Shown in pieces: positions 6,300-21,107 of a DNA stretch of 64,000 nucleotides; the first letter of the stretch is position 1, and the number at the start of each line of letters is the position of its first letter. The stretch spans positions 34,045 to 98,044 of IMG/VR virus record IMGVR_UViG_3300047323_000694. One strand, written 5' to 3'. The notes beneath the pieces are model-generated. The model was not told the origin of the DNA. It was given only the letters and a program-made list of their open reading frames with translations, and did not search any database. The translations under genes were made by a program, and so were the position numbers. This DNA comes from a virus.

Positions 6300-7346
6300 C
6301 TAAGTCTTAGCTATTCTGGATGAAACGTTACCAGCAGAATATGAAGCGTCTGTAGATAAGTTTAAATAGAACGGCCCGCACTGCGCGCCGCCACCGTAAG
6401 AGCCACCGAAATAAAGAACTGCCGAAGCTCCGGCTGAATAACGATCGCCGGTAGCCCCGTCTGTTTGAGTGGCACTAGTTGAAGAGGGAACAAATGACGT
6501 CCTCAGGTCGTATCCAGTACCGGTAGCCGCCGAAAATGCGGTTGGGTAGCCGCTTACGGGAAGCGTAAGCGACGTACCAACATAGCTGGAATTCCCTGAG
6601 TTATCCCAAATCATGCAGCCCATACTTGAGCTAGAGCTTAAACCGTCTGCCATCTGCCAAACATTCGCCCAAAGTCCGACTATCCCCCTCCAAGTTGCTT
6701 GGGCGACGGTAGCGTTATTTACTTGTAGCGGCCCAAAATCAGCTGTCGAGTTTCCTTGCCCTAATACATTTTGCGCGTCAGGCGTCCCCAACTCTACAAT
6801 AAGAAGCAGTTGTATGGCTGAAATCTGATGATAGCTCCATATGGTAAACCCAGTGACAGACCCGGTGTTTCTAGCGCTAGCTCTGCTGCGCATTGTTGCG
6901 AAATCTAGATCAGCTATAGGGTATAGCCCGGGAAGCGAGCCAAGTTTTGACCCGTCTGCCACTGCCTGATATTTGCCAACCCATATCTGCGCTATAGGTG
7001 ATCCTCCGCTCCAGAATGCGGGATGCCTGACAAATCCGGGAGATGCGGTATCAGATATCCACCAAACCCTCTTTCCTGTGTATGGGCCTGACGTCAAAGT
7101 ATCGCCCTTAACAAAGAAGGCAGGAATTTTAATCATCGCCTGGCTATCTATCGTCTCCCCAATAATGGCGCTATATATAGGATGGCTAGCGAAATACCCT
7201 GCGCTCGGCGAAACGGCGTTCCCTAGCAAGTCGACTCTCTGCCAGACACCAGCGCCGCCGCTGCCTGCCGATATGAAAGCTATGCCGATTATCGGGGATG
7301 TAGTCGCCGCCGACGAAATCCTTCGCAACGCCGCAGCCAGCCTCAT
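6300..7346 (-). CDS. Receptor-binding protein with C-type-lectin (FGE-sulfatase/Mtd-like) fold
   Basis: KIPAF, HPAF, VGKYQA, GLWANVWQMADG and terminal GGSYGGGAQCGPFYL..S...NVSSRIAK; start MRLAAAL at 7346 overlaps the upstream stop. Confidence 0.65.
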   Translation of the reverse strand: MRLAAALRRISSAATTSPIIGIAFISAGSGGAGVWQRVDLLGNAVSPSAGYFASHPIYSAIIGETIDSQAMIKIPAFFVKGDTLTSGPYTGKRVWWISDTASPGFVRHPAFWSGGSPIAQIWVGKYQAVADGSKLGSLPGLYPIADLDFATMRSRASARNTGSVTGFTIWSYHQISAIQLLLIVELGTPDAQNVLGQGNSTADFGPLQVNNATVAQATWRGIVGLWANVWQMADGLSSSSSMGCMIWDNSGNSSYVGTSLTLPVSGYPTAFSAATGTGYDLRTSFVPSSTSATQTDGATGDRYSAGASAVLYFGGSYGGGAQCGPFYLNLSTDASYSAGNVSSRIAKT

Positions 7347-7720
7347 GTCGAAGGCCCCGCATACAGATTCCACGCCGTCCCGTTGACCGTGGAGTAAATG
7401 TACTCGGCCAGCTTGCTCGCAGCAGGCGTGGCTGGAGTCGTGCCGCCTGACGTGATTGGGGTCGTGCCTGTCGGCTGCGTCAGCGTGTACGCTGTCGAGC
7501 CTTGGCGAACCCGGACAAGCACGGTGTACGTTTCCCCGGACGGCGTTGGCACATTGGAGAATGCCAGGGTGGCATTCCCCGTCAGCGTGATATCGAAGAT
7601 CGACCCCAGCGAGCAATCCAGCGTTACGGTTCCGGTAGCGGTCGCGTTCGTGACGGTCTTGTCAAAGTAGCCGACGGCGCTGAGCAGCCGTACAACTAGT
7701 TTTGCTCCGACGAAGTTCAT
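7343..7720 (-). CDS. Small virion structural / fibre protein
   Basis: Thr/Gly-rich beta-type sequence in the tail cluster, coupled to its neighbours. Confidence 0.65.
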   Translation of the reverse strand: MNFVGAKLVVRLLSAVGYFDKTVTNATATGTVTLDCSLGSIFDITLTGNATLAFSNVPTPSGETYTVLVRVRQGSTAYTLTQPTGTTPITSGGTTPATPAASKLAEYIYSTVNGTAWNLYAGPST

Positions 7721-8443
7721 TTACGCCACCACGGTGACGCGGTACTGGCCGGTCGTAGGCGCAGTGCCGAACGTGAGCTGCACCGTGTTCACGCCGTTAG
7801 CCACGTTGTCGACGATGACCTGCTCGTTCGAGCTGACCAGGCGGACCATGACCAGCACGTCCTGAGTGTTCAGGTTGTGCGTGAAGGTGATAGTGGTTGC
7901 CGTGCCGTCGCCAATGGTGGCTGAGGCTTTACGAGCGACGACAGTAGGGTCGACAGCGATAACGCCGCTGGTGATGGTGACGCCATTGCCTGCGGTGTAC
8001 GTTGCCCCGCCGCCAATCTGGGCGAATACCAGCGCTGTGGTGCCTATGGTGATTGGCGCGTCGGTAGTTTGCAGCCAGATGGTGTTGCCCAGTGTTGTGC
8101 CTTCGCTGATGAAGGTCGCGGCAGCCAAAGCCTCGGCGCCGGTGTCGAAGTCAGTCGCGCGGGTCCATGCGCCAGTGGCGGCAAGGTAGATACCATTTCC
8201 GGAACCTGCGGTTTGGCTCTTAACCAGCACACGGTCACCGGCAACAACGGAAACACCATCGATGGTCTGGGCGCCGGACAGGGTGATGTTGGCTGTGGTA
8301 GCCGCACGCACTGGCTGCTTCCACGAAAAGCCCTGGATGGCTGCCTGAAGCTGGGCGTATGTCACTGCGTCTTGCGGGTTAACGGCGTCCTTCAAGTTGA
8401 TGAAAGCAAAGCCACTACCATCCAGCGTGTTCGTGATTTTCAT
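7721..8443 (-). CDS. Virion fibre / decoration protein
   Basis: WKQPVRAATTANITLSGAQTIDGV..GDRVLVK.Q..NGIY..WTRATD motif common in phage tail fibres. Confidence 0.75.
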   Translation of the reverse strand: MKITNTLDGSGFAFINLKDAVNPQDAVTYAQLQAAIQGFSWKQPVRAATTANITLSGAQTIDGVSVVAGDRVLVKSQTAGSGNGIYLAATGAWTRATDFDTGAEALAAATFISEGTTLGNTIWLQTTDAPITIGTTALVFAQIGGGATYTAGNGVTITSGVIAVDPTVVARKASATIGDGTATTITFTHNLNTQDVLVMVRLVSSNEQVIVDNVANGVNTVQLTFGTAPTTGQYRVTVVA

Positions 8444-8454
8444 GCGGGTCTACC

Positions 8455-9453
8455 TCAGTTTAAGTACGCCTTGCCTGCGTAGGCCGCGCCATGGGTTACT
8501 TGGACGGTGTTCGAGTCGACGTAGGAAACGTCGGGCACAATGACGTTACCGAGGGTGTCGACGACGGTCACTGATGGGTATCGGTTCAGGTTATGCGGGA
8601 TGGTCCAGGTCGCGAGCGCGCTGGCCTGGGTGAACGTGTAGGTGCTGGCGCCGCCGGAGCCGGACGAAGCCAGTGCAGTGCCGTCCGCTCGCTGATAGCT
8701 GATGCAGCGCCAAGCTGTTGCGCCATCAGCCTGCACGATCATGGCGTCACCGTTCTGCACGGTGATGTTTGCGTGGGTAGGCAGTGTCAGATTGTTGCTG
8801 TGGACCAGCACCATGCCCGGCGCTACAAAGACGATTCGGCGGACGGCGCCATTAGTGGTGACAGAGGGATCTGCGATGCCGTAGATCATGTCCCCAACGG
8901 AGCCGCCCACGAAAGCCGAGTTGCCGTTAGCGCCGAATGTGACGATCCCAGAGATTATGCCGGCCGAGCCGTATGCCTCGTTTAGCGGGCCGGTCATCTG
9001 GCCGCCAGCCAATGGAAGCTTGGTTGGGTCTGGGGCGCCAATCAATGGCGTGCCGTCATACCGGCTATAGGCCAACATCTTGGCTTCATTGCCGGTCCCG
9101 GTCTTTTGGAAGATTGCTACATCTCCCGCGTGCGTGAGGATGTCGGCCTGGGAGAGATTCAGCAGGTGATAGCCATTCGCTGCGTTGTGAGTAAGCGTTA
9201 GCGAGCCGCCAAACGTTACACGCCAAGTGGTGCCAGATGGCGTAGCGCCTGCCCCCATATCAAAACCGGTCACGGTGCTGGTGCCGGTGAGCAATATGTT
9301 ATTGCTATTTGCGGCCTCCAAGCTCGGGAAGCTACCGCTAGCCACGGAAACCATTTCCGGCCCATAAAGAGCCCCGCGCAGCAGTAGCGCGTCGCCGACC
9401 GGGATCTGAACGGGCTGCCCGTCCTTGCGAACCAGCGTCAGACGGGAGGCCAT
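8455..9453 (-). CDS. Tail fibre protein with an internally duplicated domain
   Basis: Two related blocks ending YSRYDGTPL and YQRADGTAL; LPLAGGQMTGPL fibre motif; C-terminal WTIPHNLNRYPSVTVVD. Confidence 0.72.
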   Translation of the reverse strand: MASRLTLVRKDGQPVQIPVGDALLLRGALYGPEMVSVASGSFPSLEAANSNNILLTGTSTVTGFDMGAGATPSGTTWRVTFGGSLTLTHNAANGYHLLNLSQADILTHAGDVAIFQKTGTGNEAKMLAYSRYDGTPLIGAPDPTKLPLAGGQMTGPLNEAYGSAGIISGIVTFGANGNSAFVGGSVGDMIYGIADPSVTTNGAVRRIVFVAPGMVLVHSNNLTLPTHANITVQNGDAMIVQADGATAWRCISYQRADGTALASSGSGGASTYTFTQASALATWTIPHNLNRYPSVTVVDTLGNVIVPDVSYVDSNTVQVTHGAAYAGKAYLN

Positions 9454-9968
9454 TACAGCACCACGTAGTCGTAGTCGTCGGTGTCCAGCTCAGTCGCCGA
9501 CAGCGCTACGCCGATCTTCTGGTCAATAGTGCCTGAGGTTGCCGTGGTCGCGTCCAGTGCGGGAGTGATGACGCCGCCAGCAGTGCCGAGGTAGTAAGTG
9601 GCGCCCAGGGTCAGGCCGGTCAGTTGCGAGTTCACGCCATCGAGGTCGTAAACCGAGGCGTTACCGCCGGACGCCACGGCGGCAAGCACATAGCCATGAG
9701 CCGGGCGACCGTTCGAGTTGTCAGCCAAACGCACATTCACCACACCGGCATTGGAGAAGATGTTGACCAACTTCCCGGCCGCAATGGCCTCGCTCGCCGG
9801 AATGGATCGGCTGGATGGGCCGCTGCCTGCGTTGTACAGGGTCGGGTCCAGCTTGCCGTCAGCACCCAAGGCTGGAATCTTCCCGGCATCAGCAGAGCCT
9901 GCCGACGTGGTGATGGGGGTGTACTGCTGATTCTGGCCATTTACCCGGCGAAGAACTTTGTCTACCAC
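9453..9968 (-). CDS. Virion structural protein
   Basis: 171 aa, Gly/Ala-rich, in the tail cluster. Confidence 0.65.
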   Translation of the reverse strand: MVDKVLRRVNGQNQQYTPITTSAGSADAGKIPALGADGKLDPTLYNAGSGPSSRSIPASEAIAAGKLVNIFSNAGVVNVRLADNSNGRPAHGYVLAAVASGGNASVYDLDGVNSQLTGLTLGATYYLGTAGGVITPALDATTATSGTIDQKIGVALSATELDTDDYDYVVL

Positions 9969-18142: not shown

Positions 18143-18168
18143 AAAAGAAAAGGCACCCGAAGGTGCCT
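18143..18168 (-). terminator. Terminator closing the ant-RAMP-RNA operon
   Basis: Minus strand AGGCACC-TTCG-GGTGCCT-TTTCTTTT. Confidence 0.88.
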
Positions 18169-18175
18169 ATTCAAT

Positions 18176-18307
18176 GCCGTTTACGGCCCATACCTAAACA
18201 TGCCGAAGCAAACCAGACCTTGCCACGTCACGCCGTACCAGAGCGAACCAGGCCAGACCAAATGATGCTTTCGCACCGCAATGCCGACTGTCGGCAATCG
18301 GCATTAC
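18176..18307 (-). ncRNA. Candidate guide RNA unit 2: structured leader, 14 G(G)Y-NN pentamers, 3' hairpin
   Basis: GTAATGCCGATTG-CCGA-CAGTCGGCATTGC stem, GGTGC-GAAA-GCATC hairpin, then GGTCT GGCCT GGTTC GCTCT GGTAC GGCGT GACGT GGCAA GGTCT GGTTT GCTTC GGCAT GTTTA GGTAT (18259 to 18190), then GG-GCCG-TAAA-CGGC. Confidence 0.75.
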
Positions 18308-18439
18308 GCTGTTTTCAGCCCATATCCTACCAAGCCCAGCCAAGTCTCAGCTTGCCGAACCATGCCACTCCAAGCCGTGGCCTGCCACATGGCGCTTTCG
18401 CACCGCAATGCCTTCTCGTACGAAAAGGCATGACGCTGC
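18308..18439 (-). ncRNA. Candidate guide RNA unit 1: structured leader, 13 G(G)Y-NN pentamers, 3' hairpin
   Basis: GTCATGCCTTTTC-GTAC-GAGAAGGCATTGC stem, GGTGC-GAAA-GCGCC hairpin, then GGCAG GCCAC GGCTT GGAGT GGCAT GGTTC GGCAA GCTGA GACTT GGCTG GGCTT GGTAG GATAT (18386 to 18322), then GG-GCTG-AAAA-CAGC. Confidence 0.75.
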
Positions 18440-18904
18440 CTACTCCGCCCTGAGTGTTTTGGATGCCATACCTTGCAGCTGCGTAAGTTTTGCAACGGCG
18501 TCAACGTTTCTCCGGCGCTCACCATCGGACAGCTCGCTCAATCTGAGGTTGCGCAGCTTCTGTCCTGCTGAGCTGAAAATCTTCTTCGCTCCACGCTGGA
18601 AGTCGGCGACCGCGATATCAGTCTGCTCATTAGGAGGAACCCAGCGGTAGCCCTTGCCCCTGATGGATTGCAGGCAGATCTGATGATCTCGCAGCAACTC
18701 GACCTTGAATGCCTCGACGTTGGCCAGCCATTCAAACTGACGCTCTCGAAACTTGTCGGCGGTGAGCTGCTGGTCTTCGGCTAAGCCTGGCATACCGAAT
18801 CTCACCTCCAGCCAGTCATGCCCGACGATATCGCCATACTTGAACTCAGCGATAAAATCCTGCACGGCCTGGCGCCATAATGGATAACGAGCCACCTCAC
18901 TCAT
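18440..18904 (-). CDS. Accessory protein of the RAMP/pentamer-RNA module (possible winged helix)
   Basis: 154 aa from MSEVARY; start overlaps the RAMP gene stop; LQSIRGKGYRWV resembles a wHTH wing. Confidence 0.7.
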   Translation of the reverse strand: MSEVARYPLWRQAVQDFIAEFKYGDIVGHDWLEVRFGMPGLAEDQQLTADKFRERQFEWLANVEAFKVELLRDHQICLQSIRGKGYRWVPPNEQTDIAVADFQRGAKKIFSSAGQKLRNLRLSELSDGERRRNVDAVAKLTQLQGMASKTLRAE

Positions 18905-19472
18905 AAGCCACCTCGAAGCGCCCGAAGCGCGGGCGATACTCACAGACACCAATCAGCTTTCCAGAGTCTGAGATAGCCTTCTTTGCCTCTTTCAAGTCCA
19001 GCACATCAGGATTGACCACAACCTCAAGCGTCACAGCCCAGTCGAGAAAGATCGGGCGATAGCGCATGATCTTCGCCTGCCCTACTTTCACGCCCCGGCA
19101 GTCAACGAAGCGAGTGTCTTCCCAGAGCTTAGCGGGAGTGTCTGGGCCGTCGAACTCAAGCTTCGCCTTGTCCGTCATTACCATGGCGCCGCGCTTCCAG
19201 TGGACGCCAAGCTTTTGGAGTTTCGCCCCCGCCCAGAATGTCGCATCGAAGTTTTGGCCCGGCACGAAGAAACCTGTTTTCTCGTCGAAATACGCACCTG
19301 AGACGAATTCGGATCGAGCAATTGCCAAATGATCGTCGTCGGTTTTTTTGCGTTTTCCGGTCAGCTCCTTGTGAGCTTTGGTCTCTGGCAATAGAGGGTT
19401 TGCCAGCCGGTCGCTGTGCATCATGAGTGGAGAGGTGCCCGTGATGCGGATGTTCAACATTTCCATGCTCAT
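18897..19472 (-). CDS. RAMP / Cas7(Csm3)-like RNA-binding protein
   Basis: N-terminal IRITGTSPLMMH, FFVPGQNF (cf. IPGSSlKG), putative thumb hairpin VKVGQAKIMRYRP, C-terminal Gly-loop GKLIGVCEYRPRFGRFEV. Confidence 0.7.
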   Translation of the reverse strand: MSMEMLNIRITGTSPLMMHSDRLANPLLPETKAHKELTGKRKKTDDDHLAIARSEFVSGAYFDEKTGFFVPGQNFDATFWAGAKLQKLGVHWKRGAMVMTDKAKLEFDGPDTPAKLWEDTRFVDCRGVKVGQAKIMRYRPIFLDWAVTLEVVVNPDVLDLKEAKKAISDSGKLIGVCEYRPRFGRFEVAYE

Positions 19473-20356
19473 GCTGCACTCCCCATGGCGTAACCGCCAT
19501 GCATGCCAAAACTGGTGTATTGGGCGTAGATCTCTTCGCGGCGTTTATCGAGATTGAAGAATGCGGAGTGCCCGCCCTGCAACTGATCGAAAAATGCCAT
19601 CAGCGGGCGGGAGTCCAGCGCACGCGCTGCGTGCAGCATGTCGCGCTTGTATTTGTGCATGGCTGAAAAGCAAGACATCAGCAAGTACAGGTGCTGGGTC
19701 TCAACGCGGTCTAGATGGATTCCTTCCTTTTTGCCTGGACCCCGGATGTATTCGCCCTCCTTCACCTCGTACGCTGCGATGAAGTTTCTGGCGGAGTCGA
19801 GTTGGTCGGCAGGAATGTCAGCCGCCGAACGCACACCGAACGCTGCATGAGTTTGCGACCAGAGCTTTGCAGTGGCGCGGCGCTGAATGGCGAGAGGTAG
19901 GTTGGTCACCTTGCCCTTGATCACCGCGCCGAGCATATGAAAGCCGTCGGTGCCGATGGTCTGACTCATAATGGTGGCGGCTTCCGAAGGAGCAACCTGA
20001 TGGAGTCGCTTCTCGCACTCAATAAAGTAGCGGCGAGCCTGACGCCCCTTGTCGTTGTTTTCGACCATGGAAAGCTCTTTTGCCATATCCAGCGTGAGGT
20101 GATAGTCAATGCGATTGCTGCCGCCCCGCTTTGCTTCATTTTTTTGTGAAGCAATCACATAGTCAGAGCCTTCTTCAAAGCCGAACTTCACAATCTTCAT
20201 TGTCAGCCAGTCAGAGAACTGGCGGCGGCTTTCAAGAAAAGCATGAAGGGTGCGAGCATCGACGAGCCCTTCTTCTCGTCCGGAAATTGCGCCCCGGAGG
20301 ATTGGTACAATTGAGCTAACGTTGTTTTCTGTACCATTTACGTTAATATTACTCAT
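19469..20356 (-). CDS. ant: Phage antirepressor (AntA/AntB N-terminus plus P22 Ant-like C-terminus)
   Basis: VDARTLHAFL..RRQFSDW, DYHLTLDMAKELSMVE...GRQARRYFIECEK; likely start MSNIN at 20356. Confidence 0.85.
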   Translation of the reverse strand: MSNINVNGTENNVSSIVPILRGAISGREEGLVDARTLHAFLESRRQFSDWLTMKIVKFGFEEGSDYVIASQKNEAKRGGSNRIDYHLTLDMAKELSMVENNDKGRQARRYFIECEKRLHQVAPSEAATIMSQTIGTDGFHMLGAVIKGKVTNLPLAIQRRATAKLWSQTHAAFGVRSAADIPADQLDSARNFIAAYEVKEGEYIRGPGKKEGIHLDRVETQHLYLLMSCFSAMHKYKRDMLHAARALDSRPLMAFFDQLQGGHSAFFNLDKRREEIYAQYTSFGMHGGYAMGSAA

Positions 20357-20428
20357 GACGATTTCTTCCTCGAAGCTGATCTCGTTTCCTGAAGCCCTGG
20401 CGTCTCGTAAACGCTGGGGCTTTTTCGT
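20350..20428 (+). ncRNA. Putative sar-like antisense RNA covering the ant ribosome-binding site
   Basis: Plus-strand hairpin AGCCCTGGCGT-N7-ACGCTGGGGCT-TTTT between arc and ant, with TAATAT at 20344-20349; same layout as P22 sar. Confidence 0.45.
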
Positions 20429-20430
20429 TT

Positions 20431-20604
20431 TCAGGCCGTTGCCTGCTTGCTCTGCATTTCCCGCCATCTCAGACCCTCCTCAATTAACAGGCCAAGTTCC
20501 GCATTCAAGCTGCGGCGGTTTGCTTGGGCCTGCGTGCGCGCCCTCTCTCTGAGCTCTTGCTCTATACGCAAGCTGTAGGCGTTTGCCTGATGCCTGTCAT
20601 TCAT
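20431..20604 (-). CDS. arc: Arc-like ribbon-helix-helix repressor (57 aa; not in the ORF track)
   Basis: Manual translation MNDRHQANAYSLRIEQELRERARTQAQANRRSLNAELGLLIEEGL...; upstream of ant. Confidence 0.8.
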   Translation of the reverse strand: MNDRHQANAYSLRIEQELRERARTQAQANRRSLNAELGLLIEEGLRWREMQSKQATA

Positions 20605-20738
20605 GGCGCTTCCCTTTCGTGTGGATTCATAATGCAGTCAAACGATATCGCCACCCCATTGTGCCGTCAAGTGGATTCTTGATTCTTTTTGAGGCCACGC
20701 CCAAACTCTCATTTCATATCACCGTATCGTGGAAAATC

Positions 20739-21107
20739 ATGTCAGACCGGCACGTCCTCCCCCCTTATTCCCTGCGCATGTCTGCCGAGCTGAGAGAGCA
20801 ATTGGAGTCAGCCGCCAAAAACAGCAAGCGCAGCCTTAATGCTGAAATCGTCGCCAGGATCGAGCGAACATTCGCCGAGGATGAGAGTAATGCCGACATC
20901 GAAGCGTACGCAGAGTGGGCTAGGCAGAACCCGCAAGAGTCGAATGAGGACAATATGATCAGCGCCTTGGCCTATCTTCGTCACCTCATCTCGTCCGCTG
21001 AAACTGGCATACGGAACATAGAGCGAATTCACGACGAAAGGACCGGCGAGCACGCCATGGCCGTCGACAATCACGGAAACCTCGTAAAAAGCTACGAGGC
21101 CGACTGA
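20739..21107 (+). CDS. Mnt/Arc-family repressor, divergent from arc
   Basis: PYSLRMSAELREQLESAAKNSKRSLNAEIVARIERTF. Confidence 0.82.
   Translation: MSDRHVLPPYSLRMSAELREQLESAAKNSKRSLNAEIVARIERTFAEDESNADIEAYAEWARQNPQESNEDNMISALAYLRHLISSAETGIRNIERIHDERTGEHAMAVDNHGNLVKSYEAD

What the first reader, a model, noticed from the sequence alone, without database searches (positions are those of the whole stretch)
18260..18439. Covarying scaffold shared by the two RNA units
The outer stem ATGCC/GGCAT and GCGGTGCGAAAGC are identical in both units. The inner stems differ completely but still pair (TTTTC/GAGAA versus GATTG/CAGTC), as do the 3' hairpins (GCTG-AAAA-CAGC versus GCCG-TAAA-CGGC). Compensatory change argues for selection on RNA structure, for example a processing or loading handle, rather than on a peptide.
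Basis: seen in the sequence. Interest (0 to 1): 0.7.

Follow-up and report, generated by a model that had tools for sequence, protein, structure and literature searches.

The report
VIPR guide-RNA scaffold, Pseudomonas prophage
The covarying hairpins are real and form the constant, structured part of the guide RNAs of a VIPR system, a CRISPR-like phage-borne RNA-guided DNA-silencing system first described in 2026 preprints, so the feature is genuine and well supported but not new in kind.

Summary
On the minus strand, two copies of a hairpin scaffold flank two tracts of 14 and 15 in-phase YNNGG pentamers. The array lies between the stop codon of a 154-aa gene and a rho-independent terminator.

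Seventy-four copies from 33 sources (the window, 29 IMG/VR viral contigs and 3 Pseudomonas genomes) show strong covariation. 97.5% of cells pair, 17 of 21 pairs carry changes on both sides, and 0 of 500 shuffles reach this.

The gene two upstream (191 aa) matches the solved SUSP1 Vipr protein (PDB 36pp, E 5.5e-44, 41% identity). The adjacent gene matches SUSP1 vap1 (E 2e-14). The locus is therefore a type II VIPR system of the Pseudomonas-prophage kind, and the scaffold is the constant region of its vrRNA array.

Details I did not find in the text of the three preprints held here:
- The scaffold is three abutting helices (H0, H1, H2), not the SUSP1 3' pseudoknot.
- H0 always abuts the last GG in fixed register.
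- H1-H2 precede every tract, the first included.

A sibling phage's guide matches this window's ant gene at 21 of 22 positions. No target was found for the window's own guides. The scan has found VIPR before on other DNA.

The parts
18897..19472 (-). vipr gene (191 aa), a RAMP/Cas7-like protein that polymerises on the GGY motifs of vrRNA
   Evidence: PDB 36pp 'SUSP1 Vipr protein', E 5.5e-44. 41% identity, E 5e-54 to the SUSP1 gene product. 89% identity to Pseudomonas phage Medea1. phrog_4652.
18440..18904 (-). vap1-like accessory gene (154 aa from the ATG at 18904); its stop codon TAG is at 18442-18440
   Evidence: 28% identity, E 2e-14 to the gene after vipr in SUSP1. phrog_5926. Found directly upstream of the array wherever that flank is held, except the PH1b deletion loci.
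18405..18434 (-). H1a: 13-bp hairpin of the leader scaffold copy (one C.U mismatch, typical of leader copies)
18391..18404 (-). H2a: GGUGC-GAAA-GCGCC hairpin
18320..18389 (-). Guide tract 1: 14 in-phase YNNGG pentamers. NN code: GT AG AC TT GT AT TC AA GA TT TG TT AG AT
18308..18319 (-). H0: GCUG-AAAA-CAGC hairpin that abuts the last GG of tract 1
18278..18307 (-). H1b: 13-bp hairpin of the internal scaffold copy
18264..18277 (-). H2b: GGUGC-GAAA-GCAUC hairpin (with a G.U pair)
18188..18262 (-). Guide tract 2: 15 in-phase YNNGG pentamers. NN code: TT CT CT TC CT AC GT GT AA CT TT TC AT TA AT
18176..18187 (-). H0': GCCG-UAAA-CGGC, the terminal variant of H0, found at the end of most arrays
18143..18168 (-). 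Rho-independent terminator (AGGCACC-UUCG-GGUGCCU plus U tract) that ends the array. It stands where H1 stands in internal copies.
19469..20467 (-). ant (antirepressor) gene, first long gene of the same operon. It holds a predicted target site (19926-19957) of a sibling phage's vrRNA.
   Evidence: Pfam AntA, E 3.5e-24. Guide L005_u1 matches 21 of 22 NN positions under the 1-nt skip rule. A promoter-like site lies at 20670-20642.

Best explanation
The scaffold is the constant, structured part of the vrRNA array of a type II VIPR (Viral Interference Programmable Repeat) system carried by a Pseudomonas-type prophage.

Shown here:
- vipr and vap1 homologues sit directly upstream.
- Each scaffold copy is three abutting helices (H0, 4 bp; H1, 13 bp; H2, 4-5 bp or more).
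- The copies flank tracts of YNNGG pentamers in which GGY is conserved and NN is free.
- The helices are kept by compensatory change.

Taken from the VIPR preprints:
- Vipr protomers bind the GGY motifs, one per pentamer.
- They form a helical filament that presents the NN dinucleotides.
- The filament reads double-stranded DNA by the 1-nt skip rule and silences transcription of rival phages.
- A constant 3' structure caps the guide.

Inferred here:
- The operon (promoter, ant, vipr, vap1, array, terminator) is transcribed as one precursor.
- H0 abuts the last GG of every tract in fixed register. [quoted passage not shown]
- H1-H2 complete the tail of internal guides. They also mark the 5' boundary of the next guide, as a processing or protection signal. 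The element therefore behaves like a CRISPR repeat that flanks each guide on both sides.
- The variable inner stem of H1 keeps the structure while lowering the sequence identity between copies.
For: - Vipr homology: PDB 36pp, E 5.5e-44; 41% identity to SUSP1 Vipr.
- vap1 homology: E 2e-14.
- Synteny of vipr, vap1 and array wherever the upstream flank is held, except the PH1b deletion loci.
- Pentamer statistics on 58 tracts and 801 repeats: G 96% at position 4, G 74% at position 5, Y 92% at position 1, positions 2-3 near random. Repeat counts run 10-31 with a mode of 12.
- Covariation and strand asymmetry.
- The MFE fold of the window's array recovers H1a, H0, H1b, H2b and the terminator, z = -4.5.
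- Independent test of the published code on this family: 20 of 60 guides have a match of at least 80% in 418 kb of sibling loci with a 1-nt skip. Skips of 0 and 2 nt give none.
- Those hits fall in ant, vipr and tape-measure genes of sibling phages.
- Every tract ends ...GG directly on H0 or H0'. The distance from H2 to the tract varies by 0-4 nt.
- Terminal scaffold copies in L011, L013, L023 and L026 keep H0 and H1 but lose H2. Leader copies keep H1 and H2 but have a degenerate H0.
- No promoter-like site lies inside the array, and there is one terminator at its end.
- Literature: 10.64898/2026.04.26.720920 and 10.64898/2026.04.26.720927.
Against: - No expression, end-mapping or binding data exist for this locus. 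No RNA run is listed for it.
- The scaffold has no detectable similarity to the SUSP1 tail: model R1 finds nothing in the SUSP1 locus. The 4-nt loop of H0 cannot hold a SUSP1-type pseudoknot. The 'tail' role therefore rests on position, not homology.
- In the cryo-EM preprint the P. fulva particles showed no fiducial like the 3' pseudoknot, so a structured cap was not seen there.
- No natural target was found for the window's two guides.
- H0 shows no covariation in this sample. That is partly because my search motifs required it.
Confidence: 0.9

Rival explanations
1. H1-H2 are a 5' handle retained on each vrRNA, and H0 alone is its 3' hairpin, like a class 1 crRNA with a 5' handle and a 3' stem-loop. 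Cleavage would fall between H0 and H1.
For: H1-H2 upstream plus H0 downstream is the only combination present around every tract in every locus, including the first and last tracts. H0 and H1 abut without a linker, which gives a defined junction. Window-type arrays end with H0' and a terminator, with no H1-H2.
Against: In SUSP1 the constant part of the mature vrRNA is 3' of the tract, and filament assembly starts there. The distance from H2 to the tract is not in fixed register. Four kinds of array end with H0 and H1 after the last tract, which this model leaves unexplained.
Confidence: 0.3
2. The hairpins are only RNA stability or transcription elements (RNase barriers, attenuators, terminator-like structures). 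They neither contact Vipr nor define guides.
For: H2b is picked up as a weak terminator-like site. The last copy is replaced by a true terminator.
Against: The outer stem, the two U.G wobbles and the H0 sequence are nearly invariant across phages whose Vipr proteins differ by up to about 20%, or 53% for L025. The fixed register with the last GG is not expected of generic stabilisers.
Confidence: 0.08
3. The region acts as DNA (iterons, a recombination or packaging site) or encodes a small peptide.
For: Mechanical ORFs overlap it, for example 18304-18525 on the minus strand and 18281-18433 on the plus strand.
Against: G-U pairs are tolerated on one strand only. Compensatory changes keep the pairing. 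Periodicity is 5 nt and length changes come in multiples of 5, not 3. No protein family matches the overlapping frames.
Confidence: 0.01

Closest known systems
Type II VIPR system of the Pseudomonas fulva prophage clade (bioRxiv 10.64898/2026.04.26.720920 and 10.64898/2026.04.26.720927)
   Same: Pseudomonas prophage setting. The gene order is vipr, vap1, then an array of YNNGG vrRNAs. Sibling guides aim at prophage regulators (ant) and at other VIPR loci, as the preprint reports for this clade.
   Different: I could not compare sequences with the P. fulva locus itself, because it is not in the collections here. The published clade is defined by more than 90% Vipr identity, which is untested. 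The text of the preprints gives no secondary structure for this clade's constant region. I derived the three-helix model here.
Type II VIPR of Escherichia phage SUSP1 (Vipr structure, PDB 36pp)
   Same: Vipr 41% identical. vap1 28% identical. Guides of GGY/NN pentamers. A constant structure starts directly after the last GG.
   Different: The SUSP1 tail is a pseudoknot of about 40 nt; here it is three stacked hairpins of about 58 nt. The upstream SUSP1 vrRNA follows a sigma-70-like promoter. Here there is one operon with no promoter-like site inside the array. R1 does not detect the SUSP1 tails.
CRISPR repeats of class 1 systems (Cas6-processed repeat hairpins giving a 5' handle and a 3' stem-loop)
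   Same: A structured repeat flanks each variable guide on both sides. The terminal copy is degenerate. A RAMP-family protein coats the guide.
   Different: There are no cas1, cas2 or cas6 genes. The guide is a gapped pentamer code rather than a contiguous spacer. The periodicity is 5 nt, not 6 nt. The processing enzyme is unknown.
Pseudomonas phage Medea1 (MW862109.1), genes Medea1_0009 and Medea1_0008 and the unannotated gap after them
   Same: Vipr 89% identical. It has the same scaffold and a single guide.
   Different: It has one guide instead of two. Its terminal copy keeps H0 and H1 and lacks H2. The record annotates the genes as hypothetical and the RNA not at all.

Membership tests
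VIPR system (type II) | A Vipr protein (minimal RAMP homologue) encoded at the locus | tested here: met
   phmmer against the PDB: 36pp_D 'SUSP1 Vipr protein', E 5.5e-44, residues 3-188 of 191. BLASTP: 41% identity, E 5e-54.
VIPR system (type II) | A vap1 accessory gene next to vipr | tested here: met
   The window ORF 18440-18904 against the SUSP1 gene after vipr: 28% identity over 136 aa, E 2e-14. Its DNA-binding fold was not tested.
VIPR system (type II) | vrRNAs made of about 9-16 YNNGG repeats, with GGY conserved and NN hypervariable | tested here: met
   The window has 14 and 15 repeats. Family logo: G 96% and 74% at positions 4 and 5, Y 92% at position 1, positions 2-3 near uniform. Closely related arrays (L005 and L006) differ mainly at N positions.
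VIPR system (type II) | A constant structured region directly 3' of the repeat tract (the 'tail') | tested here: met
   H0 or H0' starts at the base after the last GG of the tracts parsed from the arrays, with covariation-supported H1 and H2 behind it. The structure is not the SUSP1 pseudoknot.
VIPR system (type II) | Guides match DNA targets by the 1-nt skip rule | tested here: inconclusive
   Met for the family: 20 of 60 guides reach at least 80% with a 1-nt skip, against 0 with skips of 0 or 2 nt, and skip bases fall on codon position 3 in the ant hit. Not met for the window's own two guides: no target in 401 Pseudomonas genomes (guide 1 only), in IMG/VR seed scans or in metagenome seed scans.
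VIPR system (type II) | Viral or proviral location | tested here: met
   The window lies in a 98-kb IMG/VR provirus record. Flanking genes are virion, tail-fibre and antirepressor genes.
VIPR system (type II) | vrRNA expression, Vipr-vrRNA complex formation and transcriptional silencing | not testable with these tools
   No RNA run is listed for this sequence. This needs sRNA-seq, pull-down and reporter assays.
SUSP1-clade vrRNA tail | An H-type pseudoknot of about 40 nt after the last repeat | tested here: not met
   Model R1 gives no hit in the SUSP1 locus at E below 1e-4. The SUSP1 tails read have a long hairpin loop that pairs downstream. Here the H0 loop is 4 nt, and H0, H1 and H2 abut without linkers.
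CRISPR-Cas | A repeat-spacer array with contiguous spacers plus cas1/cas2 or other cas genes | tested here: not met
   The variable parts are pentamer tracts, not spacers. No Cas family was hit in Pfam or NCBIfam for the neighbouring genes.

The most novel reading that the evidence does not exclude
In the Pseudomonas-prophage VIPR clade the constant region is not a 3' tail only. It is a CRISPR-repeat-like three-helix module that flanks every guide on both sides of a single operon-length precursor. H0 sets the 3' register of the Vipr filament, and H1-H2 direct an as yet unknown processing step that creates the 5' end of the next guide. That would be a second, independent solution to vrRNA biogenesis. 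It would also be an architectural intermediate between promoter-driven solo vrRNAs and processed CRISPR arrays.
Probability: 0.3. Interest if true: 0.5.

Novelty: new member of a known kind. Interest (0 to 1): 0.35.

Why it matters
VIPR is a very recent discovery: RNA-guided DNA recognition by a gapped code, proposed as older than CRISPR. This locus adds a further Pseudomonas prophage member.

Through its 33 relatives it also gives a covariation-backed secondary structure for the constant region of that clade. The preprint text held here gives a structure only for the SUSP1 pseudoknot. The cryo-EM preprint reports no fiducial like the pseudoknot in its P. fulva particles.

The structure gives concrete elements to mutate when asking how vrRNAs are cut out of an operon transcript and how the Vipr filament is put in register. 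The cross-matches (a sibling guide on this phage's ant gene, others on vipr and tape-measure genes) independently reproduce the 1-nt skip rule on data not used by the authors.

Tried and rejected
- Rfam (E up to 10) finds no family on the region.
- blastn of the array against GenBank phages finds no match.
- Before the identification I considered a TRAP-like ring binder, G-quadruplex tracts, a CsrA/Hfq/tRNA-CCA sponge and a type III toxin-antitoxin RNA. I dropped all of them once the upstream protein matched Vipr.
- Three motif hits in Verrucomicrobiae, Methylococcaceae and Flavobacteriales genomes (L033, L034, L038) are chance matches without scaffold or tracts.
- Target search for the window's guides:
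  - Guide 1 with up to 3 mismatches in 401 Pseudomonas genomes: none.
  - Guide 2 was not run against those genomes.
  - Four exact 9-dinucleotide seeds in IMG/VR gave six hits. All scored loci are low in GC (31-43%). The best full-length matches are 0.70-0.82, which I judged to be chance.
  - Two 11-dinucleotide seeds in metagenomes: none.
- No self-match of 0.7 or more in the 98-kb record.
- No RNA holder is listed among public runs. The only full holder is a rhizosphere metagenome that may be the source of the window.
- Supplementary files of the discovery preprint are not held, so the published P. fulva vrRNA ends (its Fig. S6) could not be read.
- Structure prediction was not run, because the sequence match to a solved Vipr structure made it unnecessary.

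Full report
**Observation**

The window region 18143-18442 is non-coding, and all flanking genes lie on the minus strand. Read on that strand, it contains in order:
- the stop codon of a 154-aa gene (TAG, 18442-18440);
- a 13-bp hairpin H1a (18434-18405) and a GNRA-capped hairpin H2a (18404-18391);
- 14 in-phase pentamers (18389-18320);
- a 4-bp hairpin H0 (18319-18308);
- H1b (18307-18278) and H2b (18277-18264);
- 15 pentamers (18262-18188);
- a variant hairpin H0' (18187-18176);
- a rho-independent terminator (18168-18143).

The GCCG-TAAA-CGGC hairpin lies outside the stated coordinates. The two copies form a 54-nt direct repeat of 74% identity. Rfam has no family for it.

**Family**

Exact-motif scans found the same element in 29 IMG/VR viral contigs and 3 Pseudomonas genomes. 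Three other genome hits are chance matches.

In every real locus the element occurs as an array of scaffold copies and pentamer tracts on one strand. Where the upstream flank is held, the array begins at the stop codon of a homologue of the 154-aa gene. It ends at a terminator or at a truncated scaffold copy.

RNAalifold on 35 copies gave three abutting helices H0, H1 and H2. A covariance model built from them scores the gene strand at 70-89 bits and the antisense strand of the same sites at 14-25 bits.

On 74 sense copies, 69 of them distinct:
- 97.5% of cells pair, against 83.8% in shuffles.
- 17 of 21 pairs carry changes on both sides.
- 158 cells change on both sides, against 32 expected.
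- 0 of 500 shuffles reach these values.
- Slid controls give 35-59% paired.

All 13 H1 pairs and all 4 H2 pairs covary. H0 is invariant, but my search motifs demanded it. Two U.G wobbles in H1 are kept in 66-67 of 69 copies. The window's array folds into H1a, H0, H1b, H2b and the terminator at minimum free energy, z = -4.5.

**The tracts**

The sample is 58 distinct tracts with 801 pentamers. Position 4 is G in 96%, position 5 is G in 74%, position 1 is a pyrimidine in 92%, and positions 2-3 are near random.

The parsed tracts hold the 5-nt phase along their length. Lengths are 10-31 repeats, with a mode of 12. Each tract ends with GG directly on H0 or H0'. The distance from H2 varies by 0-4 nt.

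**Identification**

The 191-aa gene two upstream (18897-19472) matches the solved 'SUSP1 Vipr protein' (PDB 36pp, E 5.5e-44). It is 41% identical to the SUSP1 gene product and 89% identical to a hypothetical protein of Pseudomonas phage Medea1. The 154-aa gene matches the gene after vipr in SUSP1, which is vap1 (28% identity, E 2e-14).

Three 2026 preprints describe the system. VIPR comprises:
- a Vipr protein, a minimal RAMP;
- vrRNAs of 9-16 YNNGG repeats, with GGY bound by the protein and NN free;
- a constant 3' tail;
- recognition of double-stranded DNA by the 1-nt skip rule;
- transcriptional silencing of rival phages and satellites.

Type II has vap1 and includes a Pseudomonas fulva prophage clade. 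The scan has met VIPR on other DNA many times, and another note on this genome already reads the locus as a RAMP plus pentamer-array system.

**Points not found in the text held**

The preprints give a secondary structure only for the SUSP1 tail, a pseudoknot inferred from five sequences. They state that the P. fulva particles lacked such a fiducial.

The Pseudomonas scaffold is different. R1 finds nothing in the SUSP1 locus. The SUSP1 tails read are long-loop hairpins with downstream pairing. Here the H0 loop is 4 nt and the three helices abut.

Comparison of first, internal and last copies separates the roles:
- Leader copies keep H1 and H2 but have a degenerate H0.
- Terminal copies keep H0 (or H0') and either H1 without H2 (L011, L013, L023, L026/Medea1) or a terminator hairpin.

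H0 therefore goes with the tract before it, H2 goes with the tract after it, and H1 serves both. With one promoter-like site upstream of ant, none inside the array and one terminator, the array is most simply one precursor that must be processed. Which helices remain on the mature RNA cannot be told without end mapping.

**Check of the code**

I converted 60 distinct guides from the family into NN patterns with skips of 0-3 nt and scanned 418 kb (all loci plus the 98-kb record). Twenty guides reached at least 80% with a 1-nt skip. None did with skips of 0 or 2 nt, and a 3-nt skip only finds the guide's own gene.

The hits fall in three kinds of gene in sibling phages:
- ant genes;
- vipr genes;
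- one site in the tape-measure gene.

One guide (L005, first unit) matches this window's ant gene at 19926-19957 in 21 of 22 positions. Its skip bases fall on codon position 3. By my own estimate, the chance expectation over all guides and sites is about 2e-4.

The window's own guides have no self-match of 0.7 or more. I found no convincing target for them elsewhere. Their NN codes are about 70% A/T.

**Verdict**

The feature is a further member of a system published in 2026. It adds a modest structural description of the clade's constant region. No expression data exist for this sequence.

Noticed in passing
window 19926-19957 (inside ant, 19469-20467 minus): The first guide of a sibling phage (L005) matches this site at 21 of 22 NN positions under the 1-nt skip rule, with skip bases on codon position 3. 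The same guide matches the ant genes of L008 and L010. This phage's antirepressor looks like a target of a rival's VIPR.
   Followed up: partly
L028:5930-6200 and L035:7480-7750 (Pseudomonas sp. PH1b): A deletion joins the first codons of vipr (MSMELLTLSIKG...) directly to the end of a pentamer tract. It removes vipr, vap1 and the first guide, and leaves one complete guide of 18 repeats with scaffold and terminator. This is an effector-less solo vrRNA in a Pseudomonas prophage.
   Followed up: partly
L019:8360-8510 and L027 (same array), also L021 and L029: These tracts have 31, 19 and 22 pentamers, well beyond the published range of 9-16. Internal 20-25-nt duplications suggest growth by slippage in multiples of 5.
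   Followed up: no
L025:1850-2500 (minus): This is a divergent member: Vipr 47% and vap1 29% identical to the window's. It has five units, a different H0 loop (GCTG-TCAA-CAGC), different H1 sequences and more degenerate pentamers (often NNNNG). One unit has a gap of about 219 nt.
   Followed up: no
L008:7279-7334 (tape measure gene 6805-9765) and equivalents in L009, L017, L024: At least six guides from different phages (L007, L009, L015, L017, L021, L028) converge on one site in the tape-measure gene, which lies just downstream of the array in sibling phages.
   Followed up: partly
window 18188-18389: The NN codes of both window guides are about 70% A/T (20 of 28 and 21 of 30) in a phage of about 57% G+C. 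No target was found. They may aim at AT-rich regulatory DNA or at a foreign element.
   Followed up: partly
window 20583-21107 (+) and 20642-20670 (-): An ORF divergent from ant hits Arc-like repressor families (PHROG E about 1e-9 to 1e-14). A sigma-70-like promoter faces ant. This fits the immI-like wiring that another note on this genome proposes.
   Followed up: no
A3 columns 40/70 and 49/61 (window H1b: 18306/18279 and 18297/18288): Two U.G wobble pairs in H1 are kept in 66-67 of 69 distinct copies while the neighbouring pairs covary freely. They are candidates for a recognition feature for a protein or an RNase.
   Followed up: no
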